Virus record (IMG/VR): IMGVR_UViG_3300044513_000191
Span: 1-30,239 of that record
DNA: 30,239 nucleotides
Direction: 5' to 3' (one strand)
DNA from: a virus
Lineage: Duplodnaviria > Caudoviricetes
Position 1 is the first letter of the stretch, and the number at the start of each line of letters is the position of its first letter. Shown here piece after piece: positions 9,569-25,993 of the stretch. The notes under the pieces are model-generated. The model did no database searches. It was not told where the DNA came from and was given only the letters and a program-made list of their open reading frames with translations. Made by a program: the position numbers and the translations under genes.

Positions 9569-10078
9569 CTAAACTAAATCAAATTCTCCACTTGCAATTC
9601 TCTTTGGTTCGTGCTTTTTTAAACGTGCTTTTAAGAAGTTATACTTGTTTAATAGTGTATCGTATTTTTTAGCTTCTTCTACTAATGCTTCTGCAATTTT
9701 ATTGTTTACTATGTAATTATGTTTTTCTTCTAGTTTCTTGTATTCTATTTCATAATATCCTTCTATTGAAACAGCTTGTGTAAAAAAATCAGGGTTTATT
9801 TTTGCAGCGTGTTCCACTCTTTTGTTTAGGGTCTCATAGTCTTGTCTTAATTGTTCATCATATTCTAACCAATCTTTTATGTTTTTTAATGAATGTAATG
9901 CTGTTGCGTGGTCTCTATTCATTGTCTTACCTATTGCTTCTAAACTCATTCTGCTATTATCCCTTAATAGTTTATAATAGATTGCACGTGCTTCTACATA
10001 CTTTCTTTGTCTTGTTTTTAAATCTATTTTTAATTTATAAAAATCTTCTACTATCTTTTTAATCATTTCGTGGTTCAT
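9569..10078 (-). CDS. DNA-binding protein with a DnaA C-terminal-like HTH domain and a coiled-coil tail
   Basis: R-x-R-x-x-V-x-AR...SLEAIGKTMNRDHATALHS matches the DnaA domain IV signature (RDHTTVLH). Confidence 0.8.
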   Translation of the reverse strand: MNHEMIKKIVEDFYKLKIDLKTRQRKYVEARAIYYKLLRDNSRMSLEAIGKTMNRDHATALHSLKNIKDWLEYDEQLRQDYETLNKRVEHAAKINPDFFTQAVSIEGYYEIEYKKLEEKHNYIVNNKIAEALVEEAKKYDTLLNKYNFLKARLKKHEPKRIASGEFDLV

Positions 10079-10283
10079 TGTCTATTTCGTTTATTGTGTT
10101 AATTATTTCTCTTATTGTCATATATCCTGATTCGTGTATTGCTTTTAATATTCCTGCACACGCTTCAAACTCGTCAACCTCCTCATACATATCAATAGCT
10201 TCTTCAAGTTCTGATATATCTTTACCGTTTGCTATATCTATTAAAGCAAGTAAGTAAAACTCTTCTACTATATCTTTATTCAT
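10059..10283 (-). CDS. Hypothetical acidic protein with a UVR-like helical motif
   Basis: 74 aa; AIDMYEEVDEFEACAGI resembles the E(D/E)(F/Y)E-x-(A/C)A-x-I motif. Confidence 0.6.
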   Translation of the reverse strand: MNKDIVEEFYLLALIDIANGKDISELEEAIDMYEEVDEFEACAGILKAIHESGYMTIREIINTINEIDNEPRND

Positions 10284-11025
10284 TTTTTACAAATGTGCCA
10301 TTAACCATTTTACCTGTTCTATTTATTATTATGTTATAAGCACTATCGATACAATCTTCTATTTTTAAATTTTCAAGTTCTGCTAGATTAGTTAATACAA
10401 CTACAATATCACCTATAGCATCTATTATTTCTTCTTTATCCTTATTAAGTAATGCTTTTGCTAGCTCGCCCGATTCTTCTTGTAGTTTGATGTATTGTGT
10501 TTTAGAATCTCCTTTATCTAGTATTCCTTTATCTTTCGCCCACTGTCTTATGTTATCAAAGATAGTAGCCGTAGATGTTTTGTAGTAGTGCCACAAAGTT
10601 TCGTTGTATATATACATTGGTAAATTAGGAAATTGACTTTTCTTTAGTTTTTTTTCTATAAAATCTTTTATGTCTTCTGTAACTTCTACTTCTCCAAAGT
10701 CTGGTAAATTAATTGTTTTTAAATAAGAATACTTTTCTTTAAAATCTTTTTTTTCAAATACTTTTTTAAATGTTGTAGTCTCTTGTGTGATATGTAATTC
10801 TTCCATTTTATTTACGTTTAGTTTATTATAAGGTGTTCTATCTCTTTTGTATCCGTATTTGTCTTGCATCTCTATTTCTTTGTTTGATGCATCATTAATA
10901 TCTGTTGTTGTATATAATATTTCATATTCTCTTACCCCTTGCTCTTGTTCTACTCTTTTTTTTAATCTATGAGTACAGCCTATTTTATTTGTTCTAGGTA
11001 TTCTATATATGTAATAAATTTTCAT
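10276..11025 (-). CDS. Fusion protein: N-terminal GIY-YIG-like domain, linker domain, C-terminal MazG-like NTP pyrophosphohydrolase
   Basis: N-terminus YIY-x7-IGCT-x5-R...E; C-terminus QWAKDKGI...KLQEESGEL...EIIDAIGD...RTGKMVNGTFVK (EExxE...ExxD). The MazG call is firmer than the nuclease call. Confidence 0.8.
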   Translation of the reverse strand: MKIYYIYRIPRTNKIGCTHRLKKRVEQEQGVREYEILYTTTDINDASNKEIEMQDKYGYKRDRTPYNKLNVNKMEELHITQETTTFKKVFEKKDFKEKYSYLKTINLPDFGEVEVTEDIKDFIEKKLKKSQFPNLPMYIYNETLWHYYKTSTATIFDNIRQWAKDKGILDKGDSKTQYIKLQEESGELAKALLNKDKEEIIDAIGDIVVVLTNLAELENLKIEDCIDSAYNIIINRTGKMVNGTFVKNE

Positions 11026-11777
11026 ATAGCTAAAGGCGCTTTTATTAATTTATTTGATTTATAATTATGCAAATAATAATCATCATAACTTCCTTTTAAT
11101 TCTGGAAGTTTATAAATTTTATTTTTAATATATAAATTTACTTGTTCAATATGATTCTCGTAAAGGTGTGCATCTGCTAAATTTAATCCTAATTGATGAG
11201 GTACTAAATTACATTGCTTAGATATTTCAATTAAAAACAATGCTCCAAAAATTATATCATACGGCAAACCTAAAAATAAATCTGAACTTCTGAAATGCAT
11301 TGCTAAATTTAACTTATTATTACTTCTTACAAAATTCATTTGAGTATAGCAACAGGGTAAAGATTGCTCTTTTAAATCAGAGGGATTCCACAAAGTAATA
11401 ACAGCTCTTCGCGTATTGTTTTTTATTTCATTAATGCAATATTCAATTTGATTTATAGAATTATTGTATTTTTTAATTTGATGCCCATACACTTTTCCTA
11501 GCTGCCCATTAACAGCAAATTCATTCCACCAGTTAATATTATTATCTTGTAAATATTTCAAATCCGTACGACCTTCATATATCCATTTAAATTCAGCTAA
11601 TGCCTTTTTAAAATATATTTTTTTTCCTGTTATTATAGGGAAACCTTCGTTTAAATTAATATTAATATTTTGATTAAATAATTTTAATGTATTTATTCCC
11701 GTTCTATTTTTAGTGCTTTCACCATATTGTAAAGTGCGTAATAATAATTTTTTATATGTTTGTTCTAAATTATTCAT
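11022..11777 (-). CDS. thyA: Thymidylate synthase-family enzyme with dCMP-type specificity residues (predicted dCMP methylase)
   Basis: RTG, ExxW, YG, RR, catalytic Cys143, RSSD, HLYxNH and C-terminal IKAPLAI are present; Asp174 replaces the canonical Asn and Tyr144 replaces His. Family is secure, substrate is inferred. Confidence 0.9.
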   Translation of the reverse strand: MNNLEQTYKKLLLRTLQYGESTKNRTGINTLKLFNQNININLNEGFPIITGKKIYFKKALAEFKWIYEGRTDLKYLQDNNINWWNEFAVNGQLGKVYGHQIKKYNNSINQIEYCINEIKNNTRRAVITLWNPSDLKEQSLPCCYTQMNFVRSNNKLNLAMHFRSSDLFLGLPYDIIFGALFLIEISKQCNLVPHQLGLNLADAHLYENHIEQVNLYIKNKIYKLPELKGSYDDYYLHNYKSNKLIKAPLAI

Positions 11778-12033
11778 TATTTTTAAAATTATTTAATGCT
11801 GCTATATATCCCACTGCATCTAACAAAGTGTCTTCTTTTAAGTTATAAGACATCCTACTTATTTTTAAAGCAATCATACATTTGTAAAAGTCTTCTGCAG
11901 TAATTTTTTTATTACATAATTCAGTTGCTACTATTGCAGCCTTTTCCATTGAATCTTTAAATGGGCCATACTCTCTTTCTTTTTCTTCAAGCCTAAGATT
12001 AATAATTTTATTAGCTTCTTCTAATATATTCAT
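11770..12033 (-). CDS. Small all-alpha protein, DUF6378-like (nucleotide-modification/NTP-PPase associated)
   Basis: ILEEANKII...REYG...MIALKISR...DTLLDAVGY pattern recognised from memory. Confidence 0.7.
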   Translation of the reverse strand: MNILEEANKIINLRLEEKEREYGPFKDSMEKAAIVATELCNKKITAEDFYKCMIALKISRMSYNLKEDTLLDAVGYIAALNNFKNNE

Positions 12034-12797
12034 AATATTGCTCTCATTACATATTGGTCTAAATCATTGTCTTGTTCAAAGAAGTACTTGTAATTGTCTA
12101 CTGCTTGTATAAATTTCTGTTCGCCTTTTGCTATAAAGTCATCAGTGGTTTCAAATATTCCTATGTCAGTACTTGCTTTGTCTATTACTAGAAAGGTAAA
12201 CTTCTTTTTGTTAAACAGTCTTAGATACATATATGCCTGTAAGTCGTAACCATATTTATCAGCTGACCATTTAAAACTTGATAGTTCAGCGGTAGTTTTA
12301 TAGTCTATTATTGTATCGCCTTGTATGATATCTGCTTTACCCCTAAATGGTAATCCATTTAACATAGCTACTTCAGGTACTTCAAATTCACTATCGGTTA
12401 GTAATTGTAGTGCTGCTTCATTTCTAAATATTGCATCCGTTAGACGCTCTGCTGCACTTCTTTCTTTTGTTAGGAATACTTCCCCATACTGTTCTTTAGC
12501 TTCCTTATATATCTTTGTGTTCTTTGTGGAAGCATCTACAAAGTGTAATTCATCTATTTTGTGTGGTTCTAATACCATCCAATGCGCTAACTTACCCGCT
12601 GCTAATGCAGGACTATCCCCATTAGGGTCTCCATACTTTATTACGTTTCTATAAGTCTTTGGACTTTTGAGTATCATTTTAAGACTTGAACTGCTTAAAG
12701 CGTGTTTGCCTAAATGAAAATAGTAAAAAGTGTCATCGTACATTTGTGCAAGGATTTCTTCCTTACCCCATACTTCTCCATTTAATAGTGTAATCAT
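12030..12797 (-). CDS. PD-(D/E)XK exonuclease, RecE/ExoVIII-like (DUF3799-like)
   Basis: LSSSSLK, GKLAHWMVLEP, E...KAD...IIDYKTT and YGYDLQAYMY motifs. Confidence 0.85.
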   Translation of the reverse strand: MITLLNGEVWGKEEILAQMYDDTFYYFHLGKHALSSSSLKMILKSPKTYRNVIKYGDPNGDSPALAAGKLAHWMVLEPHKIDELHFVDASTKNTKIYKEAKEQYGEVFLTKERSAAERLTDAIFRNEAALQLLTDSEFEVPEVAMLNGLPFRGKADIIQGDTIIDYKTTAELSSFKWSADKYGYDLQAYMYLRLFNKKKFTFLVIDKASTDIGIFETTDDFIAKGEQKFIQAVDNYKYFFEQDNDLDQYVMRAIL

Positions 12798-12986: not shown

Positions 12987-13112
12987 CTACTTTTCTTCTT
13001 TATTTTTTTCTAATTTTTTTTCAATTACTTCAATCTTATTTAAAGCAACCACTAATGCTTGTTGTACTAGTTTAAGGTCGTACTGCATTTTTACTAATGT
13101 TTGTTCTTTCAT
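12987..13112 (-). CDS. Hypothetical 41-aa coiled-coil protein (not in track)
   Basis: MKEQTLVKMQYDLKLVQQALVVALNKIEVIEKKLEKNKEEK*; ATGA overlap with the upstream gene. Confidence 0.65.
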   Translation of the reverse strand: MKEQTLVKMQYDLKLVQQALVVALNKIEVIEKKLEKNKEEK

Positions 13113-13378
13113 TTCTGTTTTTTTAGTTTCTCTATATATAAAGTAGCATCCATTAGTTCTTCCTGCAAGTGAGTAAGAAAAGCATAGAAACCATCAGGAC
13201 TATCGTGTAAAGTTGTACCATATTTTATAATACCATCCCTTGAACGTGCCTTATATTTATCTATTACACTTAACACTATCGGGTCTTTAGGTAAGTTGTT
13301 ATAAGAATATCCTGTGCTATCTGTAGACCACTTACCATCTTCCATCATTTCTTCGTACTTCTTTATTGAATCACTCAT
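13109..13378 (-). CDS. Small all-alpha NTP-PPase-like (MazG-superfamily) protein
   Basis: R-x-x-x-G-x-x-KYGTTL...HLQEELMDATLY motif. Confidence 0.6.
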   Translation of the reverse strand: MSDSIKKYEEMMEDGKWSTDSTGYSYNNLPKDPIVLSVIDKYKARSRDGIIKYGTTLHDSPDGFYAFLTHLQEELMDATLYIEKLKKQK

Positions 13379-25054: not shown

Positions 25055-25993
25055 TTAGATACCGTAAGATACGATGTCAGAAACGATTCCGTATTGTACA
25101 CCTGCAGTAAATCTCATTACTACACGTACATTTTGTGAACCATCAATATCAGCCATATCAATAACTTTTACTTCGTTGTGGTCTGCTAATAAACCTGTAC
25201 CAAAGTATAAGTTAGATTTTTCAGCAGCAATTGCAGTGTTATCAGCTAATCCGTTTGCAACAAAGATTTTAACTCCGTCAAAAGTTAAACTTCCATTGTT
25301 CCACCATTGAGTACCCATAGCGTTTGTACCTGCTGCTCCTAATCCAGAAGTTCCAAATCCACCTAAAGCTCTTACATAAGCTCTAGCGATATTTTGTGAA
25401 ACATAGATATTTAAATCTTCACTTCCGTAAACAGTAGAAGGAATAGCATCTACGATACTTCCTAATTGTGCAATTACGTTTGCAGCATCTACAGTAGTAC
25501 CTGCAATTTTAGAACCACCTGTATGAGCAATATCTGCATCAAGTAAAGTAGTTAATCCATCAAATTGTCCGCTTGTAGCAGTAGAACCTTCCCAGATAGA
25601 AGTTTCAGTTCTTTGTGCTACTTTAGCTGCTACGTGTCCGATTAAGAAATCAGAGAAAGAAGAAGGTAAAGTATCAAAAGCTGAATATCCCATAGAGATA
25701 GCATCCCAATCATTTTGGAAATCTTTCTTACATAGTTGTAAGTTTACTTGTTGGTATTCTGGTTGTAATACTCTTTCATCAAGTGTAATTGTAGAAGTTC
25801 CAACAAAATCACAAGCCGCATCTGTTACGATGTCGTTTGTAGAAACTGTTTTTAATACTTCTTTAAATTTAATGTTTGGTTTAACAGTGATTCCACCGTT
25901 TTCAATTGTTGAACCACTTAATAGAGCAGCAGATATATATTGTCCTGCAAATTCTCCTGCATAAGTAGTAGTAATACTTGTTGTAGTTGCCAT
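25055..25993 (-). CDS. Major capsid protein
   Basis: 312 aa; TTYAGEFAG...IWEG...FDG...DGSQNVRVVMRFTAGVQYG; follows the scaffold and precedes a strong terminator. Confidence 0.82.
   Translation of the reverse strand: MATTTSITTTYAGEFAGQYISAALLSGSTIENGGITVKPNIKFKEVLKTVSTNDIVTDAACDFVGTSTITLDERVLQPEYQQVNLQLCKKDFQNDWDAISMGYSAFDTLPSSFSDFLIGHVAAKVAQRTETSIWEGSTATSGQFDGLTTLLDADIAHTGGSKIAGTTVDAANVIAQLGSIVDAIPSTVYGSEDLNIYVSQNIARAYVRALGGFGTSGLGAAGTNAMGTQWWNNGSLTFDGVKIFVANGLADNTAIAAEKSNLYFGTGLLADHNEVKVIDMADIDGSQNVRVVMRFTAGVQYGIVSDIVSYGI

What the first reader, a model, noticed from the sequence alone, without database searches (positions are those of the whole stretch)
11022..11777. ThyA homologue naturally carries both specificity switches used to engineer a dCMP methylase
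Seen: aligning with a constant offset of 3 to E. coli ThyA numbering, C143=C146, R163=R166, S164=S167, D166=D169, H204=H207 and Y206=Y209 are conserved. N177 is Asp (D174, codon GAT at 11258-11256, LGLPYDI), H147 is Tyr (LPCCY) and Q165 is Phe. Established: Asn177 (L. casei Asn229) selects uracil, N->D converts TS to a dCMP methylase, removing the His (L. casei H199) improves this further, and T4 dCMP hydroxymethylase has Asp at this site. Inference: the retained W80 equivalent and the TS-like C-terminus IKAPLAI (E. coli IKAPVAI) favour full methylation over hydroxymethylation. Automatic annotation would label it plain thymidylate synthase.
Basis: partly seen in the sequence, partly recalled or inferred. 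Interest (0 to 1): 0.8.

Follow-up and report, generated by a model that had tools for sequence, protein, structure and literature searches.

The report
Swappable phage dCMP-methylase cassette
A small marine phage carries an optional three-gene block whose thymidylate-synthase look-alike has the cytosine-reading aspartate, so it likely methylates dCMP and puts 5-methylcytosine into phage DNA as a shield against restriction enzymes, a trick already known from phage Xp12 and seawater virus surveys.

Summary
The 251-aa ThyA-fold protein (11022-11777, minus strand) has Asp174 at Asn177, Tyr at His147 and Phe at Gln165, and Asp is invariant in 121 of 121 close homologues. It keeps Leu143, Asp169 and the ThyA C-terminus, so published rules predict a dCMP methylase, not a hydroxymethylase or hydroxylase. 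Context points the same way. The gene sits between DUF6378 and a MazG-type gene in an accessory slot. Close relatives fill that slot with other DNA-modifying genes (44 of 68 loci). Between the same two flanks, sister phages swap in T4-gp42-like enzymes with glycosyltransferases; all 122 scored central enzymes have Asp177. It is not new: positions 177 and 147 are the published top markers of modified-cytosine phages, five of seven such natural enzymes were shown to make 5mdC, and 52 of the 150 nearest cluster representatives carry Asp. This scan has noted the same cassette on several other genomes. No activity or DNA modification was shown here, and genome composition gave no support. No polymerase, deaminase or kinase gene was found; how 5mdCMP gets phosphorylated, and what DUF6378 does, is the open point.

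The parts
11022..11777 (-). ThyA-fold enzyme, predicted dCMP C5-methylase (251 aa)
11256..11258 (-). Asp174 codon (E. coli Asn177 position; cytosine-reading residue)
   Evidence: Asp in 121 of 121 homologues
11346..11360 (-). LPCCY motif: Leu140 (= L143, methyl-type), catalytic Cys143 (= C146), Tyr144 (= H147)
   Evidence: L143 rule from PMC13326640 passages
11280..11294 (-). FRSSD motif: Phe162 (= Q165), Arg163, Ser164, Asp166 (= D169; Asn in 5-hydroxy-dCMP synthases)
11770..12033 (-). DUF6378 protein (87 aa), constant upstream flank, overlaps the TS start by 8 nt; function unassigned
   Evidence: PF19905 E 3.7e-15; directly upstream in 52 of 54 TS loci; fused to TS, dUTPase or MazG domains elsewhere
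10276..11025 (-). MazG/PRA-PH-type NTP pyrophosphatase domain (C-terminal ~100 aa) with an optional N-terminal GIY-YIG-like domain; predicted dCTPase; overlaps the TS stop by 4 nt
   Evidence: PF01503/PF03819, phrog_715 E 4e-30; N-terminus only weak T5orf172 E 0.016; downstream in 53 of 54 TS loci
10283..12030 (.). Accessory slot between the exonuclease gene (12030-12797) and the 74-aa ORF (10059-10283); cassette GC 25.8% against 31.7% for the rest
   Evidence: blastn of cassette-less relatives at 90-96% identity stops at 10282/10288 and 12006-12032; two contigs of run X1 skip 10282/10288-12030; alternative occupants

Best explanation
The gene encodes a ThyA-fold enzyme with Asp at the base-reading position that is predicted to methylate dCMP to 5-methyl-dCMP using methylene-tetrahydrofolate, as the core of a mobile three-gene cassette that likely puts 5-methylcytosine into the phage's DNA to block host restriction. 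Shown: fold, catalytic and phosphate-binding residues, Asp174/Tyr144/Leu140/Asp166, the ThyA-type C-terminus, the fixed DUF6378-TS-MazG order, the accessory slot and its alternative occupants. Inferred from known families: Cys143 attacks C6 of dCMP, Asp174 pairs with N3/N4 of cytosine, and hydride transfer from folate (water kept out by Leu140, tail closing the site) gives a methyl group and dihydrofolate, which the host DHFR would recycle. Inferred from context only: the MazG domain hydrolyses dCTP to dCMP, feeding the enzyme and draining unmodified C; host kinases, or DUF6378, raise 5mdCMP to the triphosphate; the host replicative polymerase incorporates it; dTTP stays host-made. How much of the C is replaced (all or part) is not known.
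For: Residues and their conservation. N177D switches specificity, and 177 and 147 are the top two positions tied to modified DNA (PMC8670742 passages). L143 goes with methyl and D/E143 with hydroxymethyl; D169N marks hydroxylases (PMC13326640 passages). Five of seven natural N177D homologues gave 5mdC in E. coli DNA with T4 gp1, through the host polymerase (bioRxiv 2024.12.05.627091 section 5). The closest GenBank phage homologue (52%, same LPCCY/FRSSD/GLPYD) lies in an Xp12-like run of PRA-PH pyrophosphatase, kinase-like gene, TS and dCMP deaminase. Of 244 loci, 123 have DUF6378...MazG flanks, and all 122 scored central enzymes have Asp177: 80 ThyA-like, 34 gp42-like (DTPCT/MRSND/GFCND), 8 divergent with an asparagine-synthase-type partner; none is a canonical Asn enzyme. 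The gp42-like ones often come with glycosyltransferase-type genes (Pfam AGT E 1.8e-18), and the ThyA-like type does not. In the window's own lineage the slot holds known DNA-modifying genes in 44 of 68 loci: 16 N6/N4 methylases, 11 TET/JBP, 9 Mom, 8 C5 methylases.
Against: No assay and no direct reading of modified bases. Two of seven tested N177D enzymes gave no 5mdC, and I could not tell whether this clade was among those tested. The L143 rule is not absolute, since Xp12 TS has Asn there. The protein is closer to ThyA (33%) than to Xp12 TS (23%) and passes the TIGR03284 thymidylate synthase cut-off. No match was found for dCMP deaminase (0 of 16 related records), family A polymerase or thymidylate kinase (0 of 5 each), and the published assay supplied a phage kinase, so the phosphorylation step is unexplained. 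The window still avoids restriction-type palindromes strongly (0 CATG, 3 GATC in 30 kb), and the TS+ against TS- comparison was weak and confounded by lineage. Loci are redundant, so the counts are not independent events.
Confidence: 0.76

Rival explanations
1. It is still mainly a thymidylate synthase (or a dual dUMP/dCMP enzyme) that supplies dTMP, with MazG acting as a dUTPase.
For: Best structural and sequence matches are ThyA; passes TIGR03284; DUF6378 also fuses to dUTPase domains (7 of 120 listed) and lies beside ThyX in an unrelated phage (PMC13432834 passage); no compositional trace of protection.
Against: Asp177 invariant with loss of His147 and Gln165; among 150 representatives Tyr147 occurs only with Asp (23 of 23) while 94 of 96 Asn types keep His; no Asn enzyme among 122 scored between the same flanks; 18 of 18 cassette-less relatives have no TS at all, 9 of them at least 90% complete, so these phages do not need their own dTMP supply.
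Confidence: 0.08
2. It acts on dCMP but stops at 5-hydroxymethyl-dCMP (or another C5 adduct), as T4 gp42 does.
For: Asp177 is shared with gp42, and gp42-like enzymes occupy the same cassette position in sister phages.
Against: Leu/Ile at 143 in 120 of 121 against Asp in T4 and in all 34 gp42-like slot enzymes; D169 kept; ThyA C-terminal tail kept, which gp42 and the ~215-aa slot enzymes lack; no glycosyltransferase-type partner in the 81 loci of this type; only 21% identity to gp42.
Confidence: 0.06
3. It makes 5mdCMP, but as a bypass to dTMP through host deamination, or as a trap on nucleotide pools; little 5mC reaches phage DNA.
For: No kinase or polymerase gene found; palindrome avoidance persists in the window; the 5mdC-to-dT route is proposed for Xp12-type phages.
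Against: That route uses a phage deaminase, not found here; the cassette takes the place of DNA-modifying genes, and its gp42-type versions carry glycosyltransferase-type genes that need the modified base in DNA.
Confidence: 0.07
4. A decaying or inactive TS copy.
For: Two of seven tested N177D enzymes were inactive in the E. coli assay; one locus (L246) has the gene in two pieces.
Against: All catalytic residues are invariant across homologues down to 58% identity, and the frame is intact with coupled neighbours.
Confidence: 0.03

Closest known systems
Xanthomonas phage Xp12 / Pseudomonas phage PaMx74 deoxycytidylate methyltransferase (5-methyl-dCMP synthase) module
   Same: TS fold, Asp177, loss of His147, hydrophobic residue at 165, RSSD and GLPYD motifs, long C-terminus, adjacent PRA-PH/MazG-type pyrophosphatase.
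   Different: Only 23% identical and outside the query's clade; Xp12 has N143/P147 against L/Y here; Xp12 also encodes DHFR, a deaminase and DNA polymerase I. Here no deaminase or family A polymerase matched, no ORF scanned hit DHFR, and DUF6378 is added.
Asp177-type TS homologues of marine and sewage metaviromes (MetaGPA: PMC8670742; bioRxiv 2024.12.05.627091)
   Same: Same two diagnostic positions (177, 147), same co-occurrence with PRA-PH domains, a coastal seawater virome among the sources; five of seven shown to make 5mdC.
   Different: Those tested were picked beside a dCMP deaminase; this cassette has none. Their sequences are in supplements I could not see.
Uncultured phage MedDCM-OCT-S28-C10 'thyA' (AP013540)
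   Same: 52% identical, same LPCCY/FRSSD/GLPYD, same well-supported clade of 25 (0.974).
   Different: An Autographiviridae phage with kinase-like gene, deaminase and polymerase next to the TS; untested.
Phage T4 gp42 dCMP hydroxymethylase with gp56 dCTPase, gp1 kinase and glucosyltransferases
   Same: Asp at 177; pathway logic of changing the nucleotide pool; gp42-like enzymes fill this same cassette in sister phages.
   Different: gp42 has Asp143, Asn168 and no C-terminal tail; 21% identity; T4 brings its own kinase and polymerase.
E. coli ThyA and its engineered N177D (L. casei N229D) variants
   Same: 33% identity, rmsd 1.2 A over 247 residues; catalytic and folate-site residues kept.
   Different: Natural Asp177, Tyr147, Phe165; the engineered second change was His to Ala (recalled).

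Membership tests
Thymidylate synthase superfamily (PF00303) | Fold and catalytic Cys, phosphate-binding Arg/Ser, His207/Tyr209 | tested here: met
Canonical ThyA (dUMP methylase) | Asn177 and His147 | tested here: not met
   Asp174, Tyr144; below the NCBIfam PRK01827 cut-offs though above TIGR03284
Canonical ThyA (dUMP methylase) | Complements thyA / makes dTMP | not testable with these tools
   needs bench work
Phage dCMP C5-methylase (Xp12 kind) | Asp at position 177 | tested here: met
Phage dCMP C5-methylase (Xp12 kind) | Non-acidic residue at 143, Asp169 and C-terminal tail retained | tested here: met
   Leu140, Asp166, IKAPLAI (rule)
Phage dCMP C5-methylase (Xp12 kind) | Forms 5mdCMP; 5mC in virion DNA | not testable with these tools
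   no assay; contigs cannot show methylation
Xp12/Pamexvirus module as a gene set | Linked deaminase, DHFR and own family A polymerase | tested here: not met
   0 of 16 related records with PF00383, among them one with terminal repeats; 0 of 5 with PF00476; no BLASTP hit to Xp12 DHFR, deaminase or polymerase in 21 records; the window is about 95% complete
Xp12/Pamexvirus module as a gene set | Adjacent MazG/PRA-PH pyrophosphatase | tested here: met
Xp12 TS clade by descent | Groups with Xp12 TS in a tree | tested here: inconclusive
   Query in a clade of 25 Asp-type sequences (0.974) without Xp12; deep nodes 0.54-0.60
T4 gp42 dCMP hydroxymethylase | Acidic residue at 143, short C-terminus | tested here: not met
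   Leu140, full tail
5-hydroxy-dCMP synthase (RB69/DLP3) | Asn at position 169 | tested here: not met
   Asp166 in 121 of 121 (rule)
T7 gp1.7 / DUF3310 nucleotide kinase (for DUF6378) | Profile similarity | tested here: inconclusive
   hhalign probability 0.5% and 0.3% with a shallow profile against single sequences

The most novel reading that the evidence does not exclude
Three small genes are enough to swap cytosine for 5-methylcytosine in a phage that relies wholly on the host replisome, and DUF6378 is an unrecognised all-helical kinase/phosphotransferase for C5-modified dCMP. DUF6378 plus MazG would then be a universal chassis into which methylase, hydroxymethylase-plus-glycosyltransferase and amidotransferase-linked enzymes are plugged.
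Probability: 0.2. Interest if true: 0.62.

Novelty: new member of a known kind. Interest (0 to 1): 0.3.

Why it matters
If right, databases mislabel a large marine clade as thymidylate synthase (all source names that give a function say so), and part of what is counted as an auxiliary nucleotide-supply gene is really anti-restriction DNA chemistry. The enzyme type is known. What would be useful is the minimal form: a 1.75-kb block with no recognisable kinase, deaminase or polymerase, testable in E. coli, which would give DUF6378 a function and a compact way to make 5mC-substituted DNA.

Tried and rejected
W80 as a methyl-versus-hydroxymethyl marker: rejected, T4 gp42 has W82. Palindrome avoidance as a trace of 5mC: 11 TS+ against 10 TS- records gave O/E for C-containing 4-mers 0.70 against 0.63 (p 0.08); CATG, CGCG and GGCC had p 0.005-0.01 uncorrected over 26 tests, but most of the relaxed TS+ records are distant lineages. 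The repeat inside a sister lineage (21 against 17 loci, p 0.66) was void, because the 'TS-' loci held other cytosine-type TS homologues. Third-position GC showed no clear split. DUF6378: model pLDDT 63.8, best VIA Z 5.7 to unrelated helical bundles; no profile match to T7 gp1.7, DUF3310 or the window's 89-aa ORF; Atlas gave only DUF6378 clusters and nothing once they were skipped; 3 papers mention DUF6378, and the one read gives no function. No close relative in prokaryote genomes (0; 10 loci at 25-38%), so no prophage host was found. RNA: the one metatranscriptome laid (X16) had no contig over the cassette and covered only 10 of 30 bins, which shows nothing. Promoter scan below shuffle level (15 against 21.7). 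Motif search in the PMC13326640 supplement found nothing. The H199A claim was not found in the library. Literature searches for this cassette in marine Flavobacteriia phages and for a TS plus asparagine-synthase cytosine modification found no paper whose listing describes them.

Full report
Setting. The window is a virus record of 30,239 bases, about 95% complete, with terminase, prohead protease, tape-measure and peptidase genes, an ERF recombinase, a helicase-like gene, NinG and an exonuclease, all on the minus strand. The ORF I take for the major capsid protein (25055-25993; label inferred, no family hit) matches only Nonlabens phages P12024S/L among GenBank phages (30.5%), so a marine Flavobacteriia host is likely but not shown. 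Runs that hold half or more of the stretch are estuary and seawater metagenomes (3 rows, 3 studies; the best may be the source sample).

Observation. Confirmed in every residue named. The block around D174 aligns to E. coli ThyA without gaps, and the model overlays the whole of ThyA (Z 35.1, rmsd 1.2 A, 247 residues). In the query and its 120 best listed homologues (58-87% identity; 474 found) Asp174, Phe162, Asp166, Arg163 and Ser164 are invariant, position 144 is Tyr or Phe and never His, and position 140 is Leu or Ile.

What the residues say. From passages of PMC8670742: Asn177 to Asp switches dUMP to dCMP, and in 433 metagenomic TS sequences positions 177 and 147 were the top two tied to modified DNA. 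From passages of PMC13326640: Leu143 goes with methylated products, Asp/Glu143 with hydroxymethylated ones, and Asn169 marks 5-hydroxy-dCMP synthases. The query has Asp177, Leu143, Asp169 and the ThyA tail, which gives 5-methyl-dCMP. From section 5 of bioRxiv 2024.12.05.627091: five of seven natural Asp177 enzymes, and Xp12 TS, put 5mdC into E. coli plasmid DNA when T4 gp1 kinase was supplied; two did not. The His-to-Ala engineering result is recalled, not seen.

How common it is. Among the 150 best 50%-cluster representatives, 52 have Asp and 96 Asn at 177 (2 gaps); 23 have Asp plus Tyr147, 17 Asp plus His, 9 Asp plus Pro; 94 of 96 Asn types keep His. The query lies in a clade of 25 Asp-type sequences (FastTree support 0.974) that includes the TS of uncultured phage MedDCM-OCT-S28-C10. 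That gene sits between a PRA-PH pyrophosphatase, a kinase-like gene and a dCMP deaminase. Xp12 TS is outside this clade and only 23% identical; deep nodes are unsupported, so an independent origin is possible but not shown.

The cassette. DUF6378 (11770-12033), the TS and a MazG-domain gene (10276-11025) overlap end to start. DUF6378 is directly upstream in 52 of 54 TS loci. MazG is downstream in 45 by a strict rule plus 8 whose hit overlaps the TS end; the last locus ends inside the TS. The block is accessory. Relatives at 90-96% nucleotide identity align up to 10282/10288 and from 12006-12032 and not between (6 of 6 tested), two contigs of run X1 skip 10282/10288-12030, and the block has 25.8% GC against 31.7%. 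Of 80 exonuclease-anchored loci, 68 span the slot: 44 hold known DNA-modifying genes (16 N6/N4 methylases, 11 TET/JBP, mostly with TAGT glycosyltransferases, 9 Mom, 8 C5 methylases), 1 holds this cassette, 2 an ATPase-GNAT, and 21 none of these. Eighteen cassette-less records, 9 at least 90% complete, have no TS anywhere.

The swap. In a sister lineage the DUF6378 and MazG flanks stay and the middle changes. Over 244 loci, 123 have both flanks: 81 with the ThyA-like enzyme, 10 with a gp42-like enzyme alone, 12 with it plus a glycosyltransferase-type gene (6 Pfam AGT, 3 weak Glyco_trans_1_2, 3 without Pfam hit), 12 with it plus a trio that includes a PLP enzyme, and 8 with a divergent TS plus an asparagine-synthase/amidotransferase. 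All 122 scored central enzymes have Asp177; the two pieces in L246 were not scored. These loci are redundant, so this is a pattern, not 123 events. Eight of 120 longer DUF6378 proteins are fusions to TS, all 8 of the Asp143/Asp177 type; 7 are fused to dUTPase and 2 to MazG. This is the strongest contextual evidence that the enzyme acts on cytosine and serves DNA modification.

Mechanism. Most likely the MazG domain turns dCTP into dCMP, the enzyme methylates dCMP with methylene-THF, 5mdCMP is phosphorylated, and the host polymerase builds it into phage DNA, blocking restriction enzymes sensitive to 5mC (all inferred). No dCMP deaminase was found in 16 related records, no family A polymerase or thymidylate kinase in 5, and no BLASTP hit to the Xp12 or S28-C10 accessory genes in 21. 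A host polymerase can do the incorporation, but the kinase step has no assigned gene. Earlier scan notes suggested DUF6378 for it; my tests neither support nor exclude that.

Against. Composition gave no support. The window keeps strong avoidance of CATG and GATC, which fits a recent arrival of the block or only partial substitution. The TS+ against TS- test was weak and lineage-confounded, and the within-lineage repeat was void. Nothing here shows expression or activity.

Verdict. Papers seen: passages of PMC8670742, PMC13326640 (plus a supplement search with no hits), PMC9206674, PMC5175136 and PMC13432834; passages and section 5 of bioRxiv 2024.12.05.627091, whose closed supplement may hold a tested member of this clade. 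Interest 0.3.

Noticed in passing
L183:3551-5573, L186:1075-3079, L219:7449-9469, L220:1452-3472 (8 loci): Between the DUF6378 and MazG flanks, a divergent TS homologue (RVPCT/IRSCD/HFRND, Asp177, Arg143) is paired with an asparagine-synthase/glutamine-amidotransferase. Candidate route to an amino-substituted cytosine such as 5-aminomethyl-dC; one paper search found no description. More unusual than the finding itself.
   Followed up: partly
L195:6079-9466, L201, L226, L232, L248, L249 (12 loci): gp42-like enzyme preceded by three genes of about 300 aa: one PLP-dependent (PF00291), two without Pfam hit. Resembles thymidine-hypermodification clusters (recalled), here on an Asp177 enzyme, so possibly amino-acid-derived hypermodification of hydroxymethylcytosine.
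   Followed up: partly
L093, L101, L104, L106-L112; also L040, L041, L247: Strong CA/TG depletion (rho 0.35-0.72) with CG excess in 19 of 284 loci. All 10 loci with the C5 methylase of L109 type show it, as do two with an N6/N4 methylase and a few TS+ or marker-less ones; other loci of that lineage average 1.05. Could be a CpA-methylation footprint or a host effect.
   Followed up: partly
window 10283-12030 and L058-L137: One gene slot hosts at least six kinds of occupant: N6/N4 methylases, C5 methylase with a second SAM methyltransferase, Mom, TET/JBP with TAGT glycosyltransferase, ATPase-GNAT, and stand-alone HNH/GIY-YIG-type nucleases.
   Followed up: yes
window 10726-11025 (minus strand): The MazG gene has an N-terminal GIY-YIG/T5orf172-like domain (weak, E 0.016) present in 27 and absent in 18 of 45 loci; may be a homing-nuclease remnant or a nuclease against unmodified DNA.
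   Followed up: partly
window 13109-13378 (minus strand): 89-aa ORF with no Pfam hit, matching unnamed PHROGs, with an acidic helical motif reminiscent of all-alpha nucleotide pyrophosphatases (recalled); present in relatives with and without the cassette.
   Followed up: no
whole window: No CATG and 3 GATC in 30,239 bases; CATG is absent from all 10 cassette-less relatives tested, pointing to a host CATG restriction system.
   Followed up: partly
L241, L244, L245: A third ThyA-like variant (about 35% to the query) between the same flanks; three central enzymes scored LPPCH/MRSLD/GLPYD, that is Asp177 with His147 kept.
   Followed up: no
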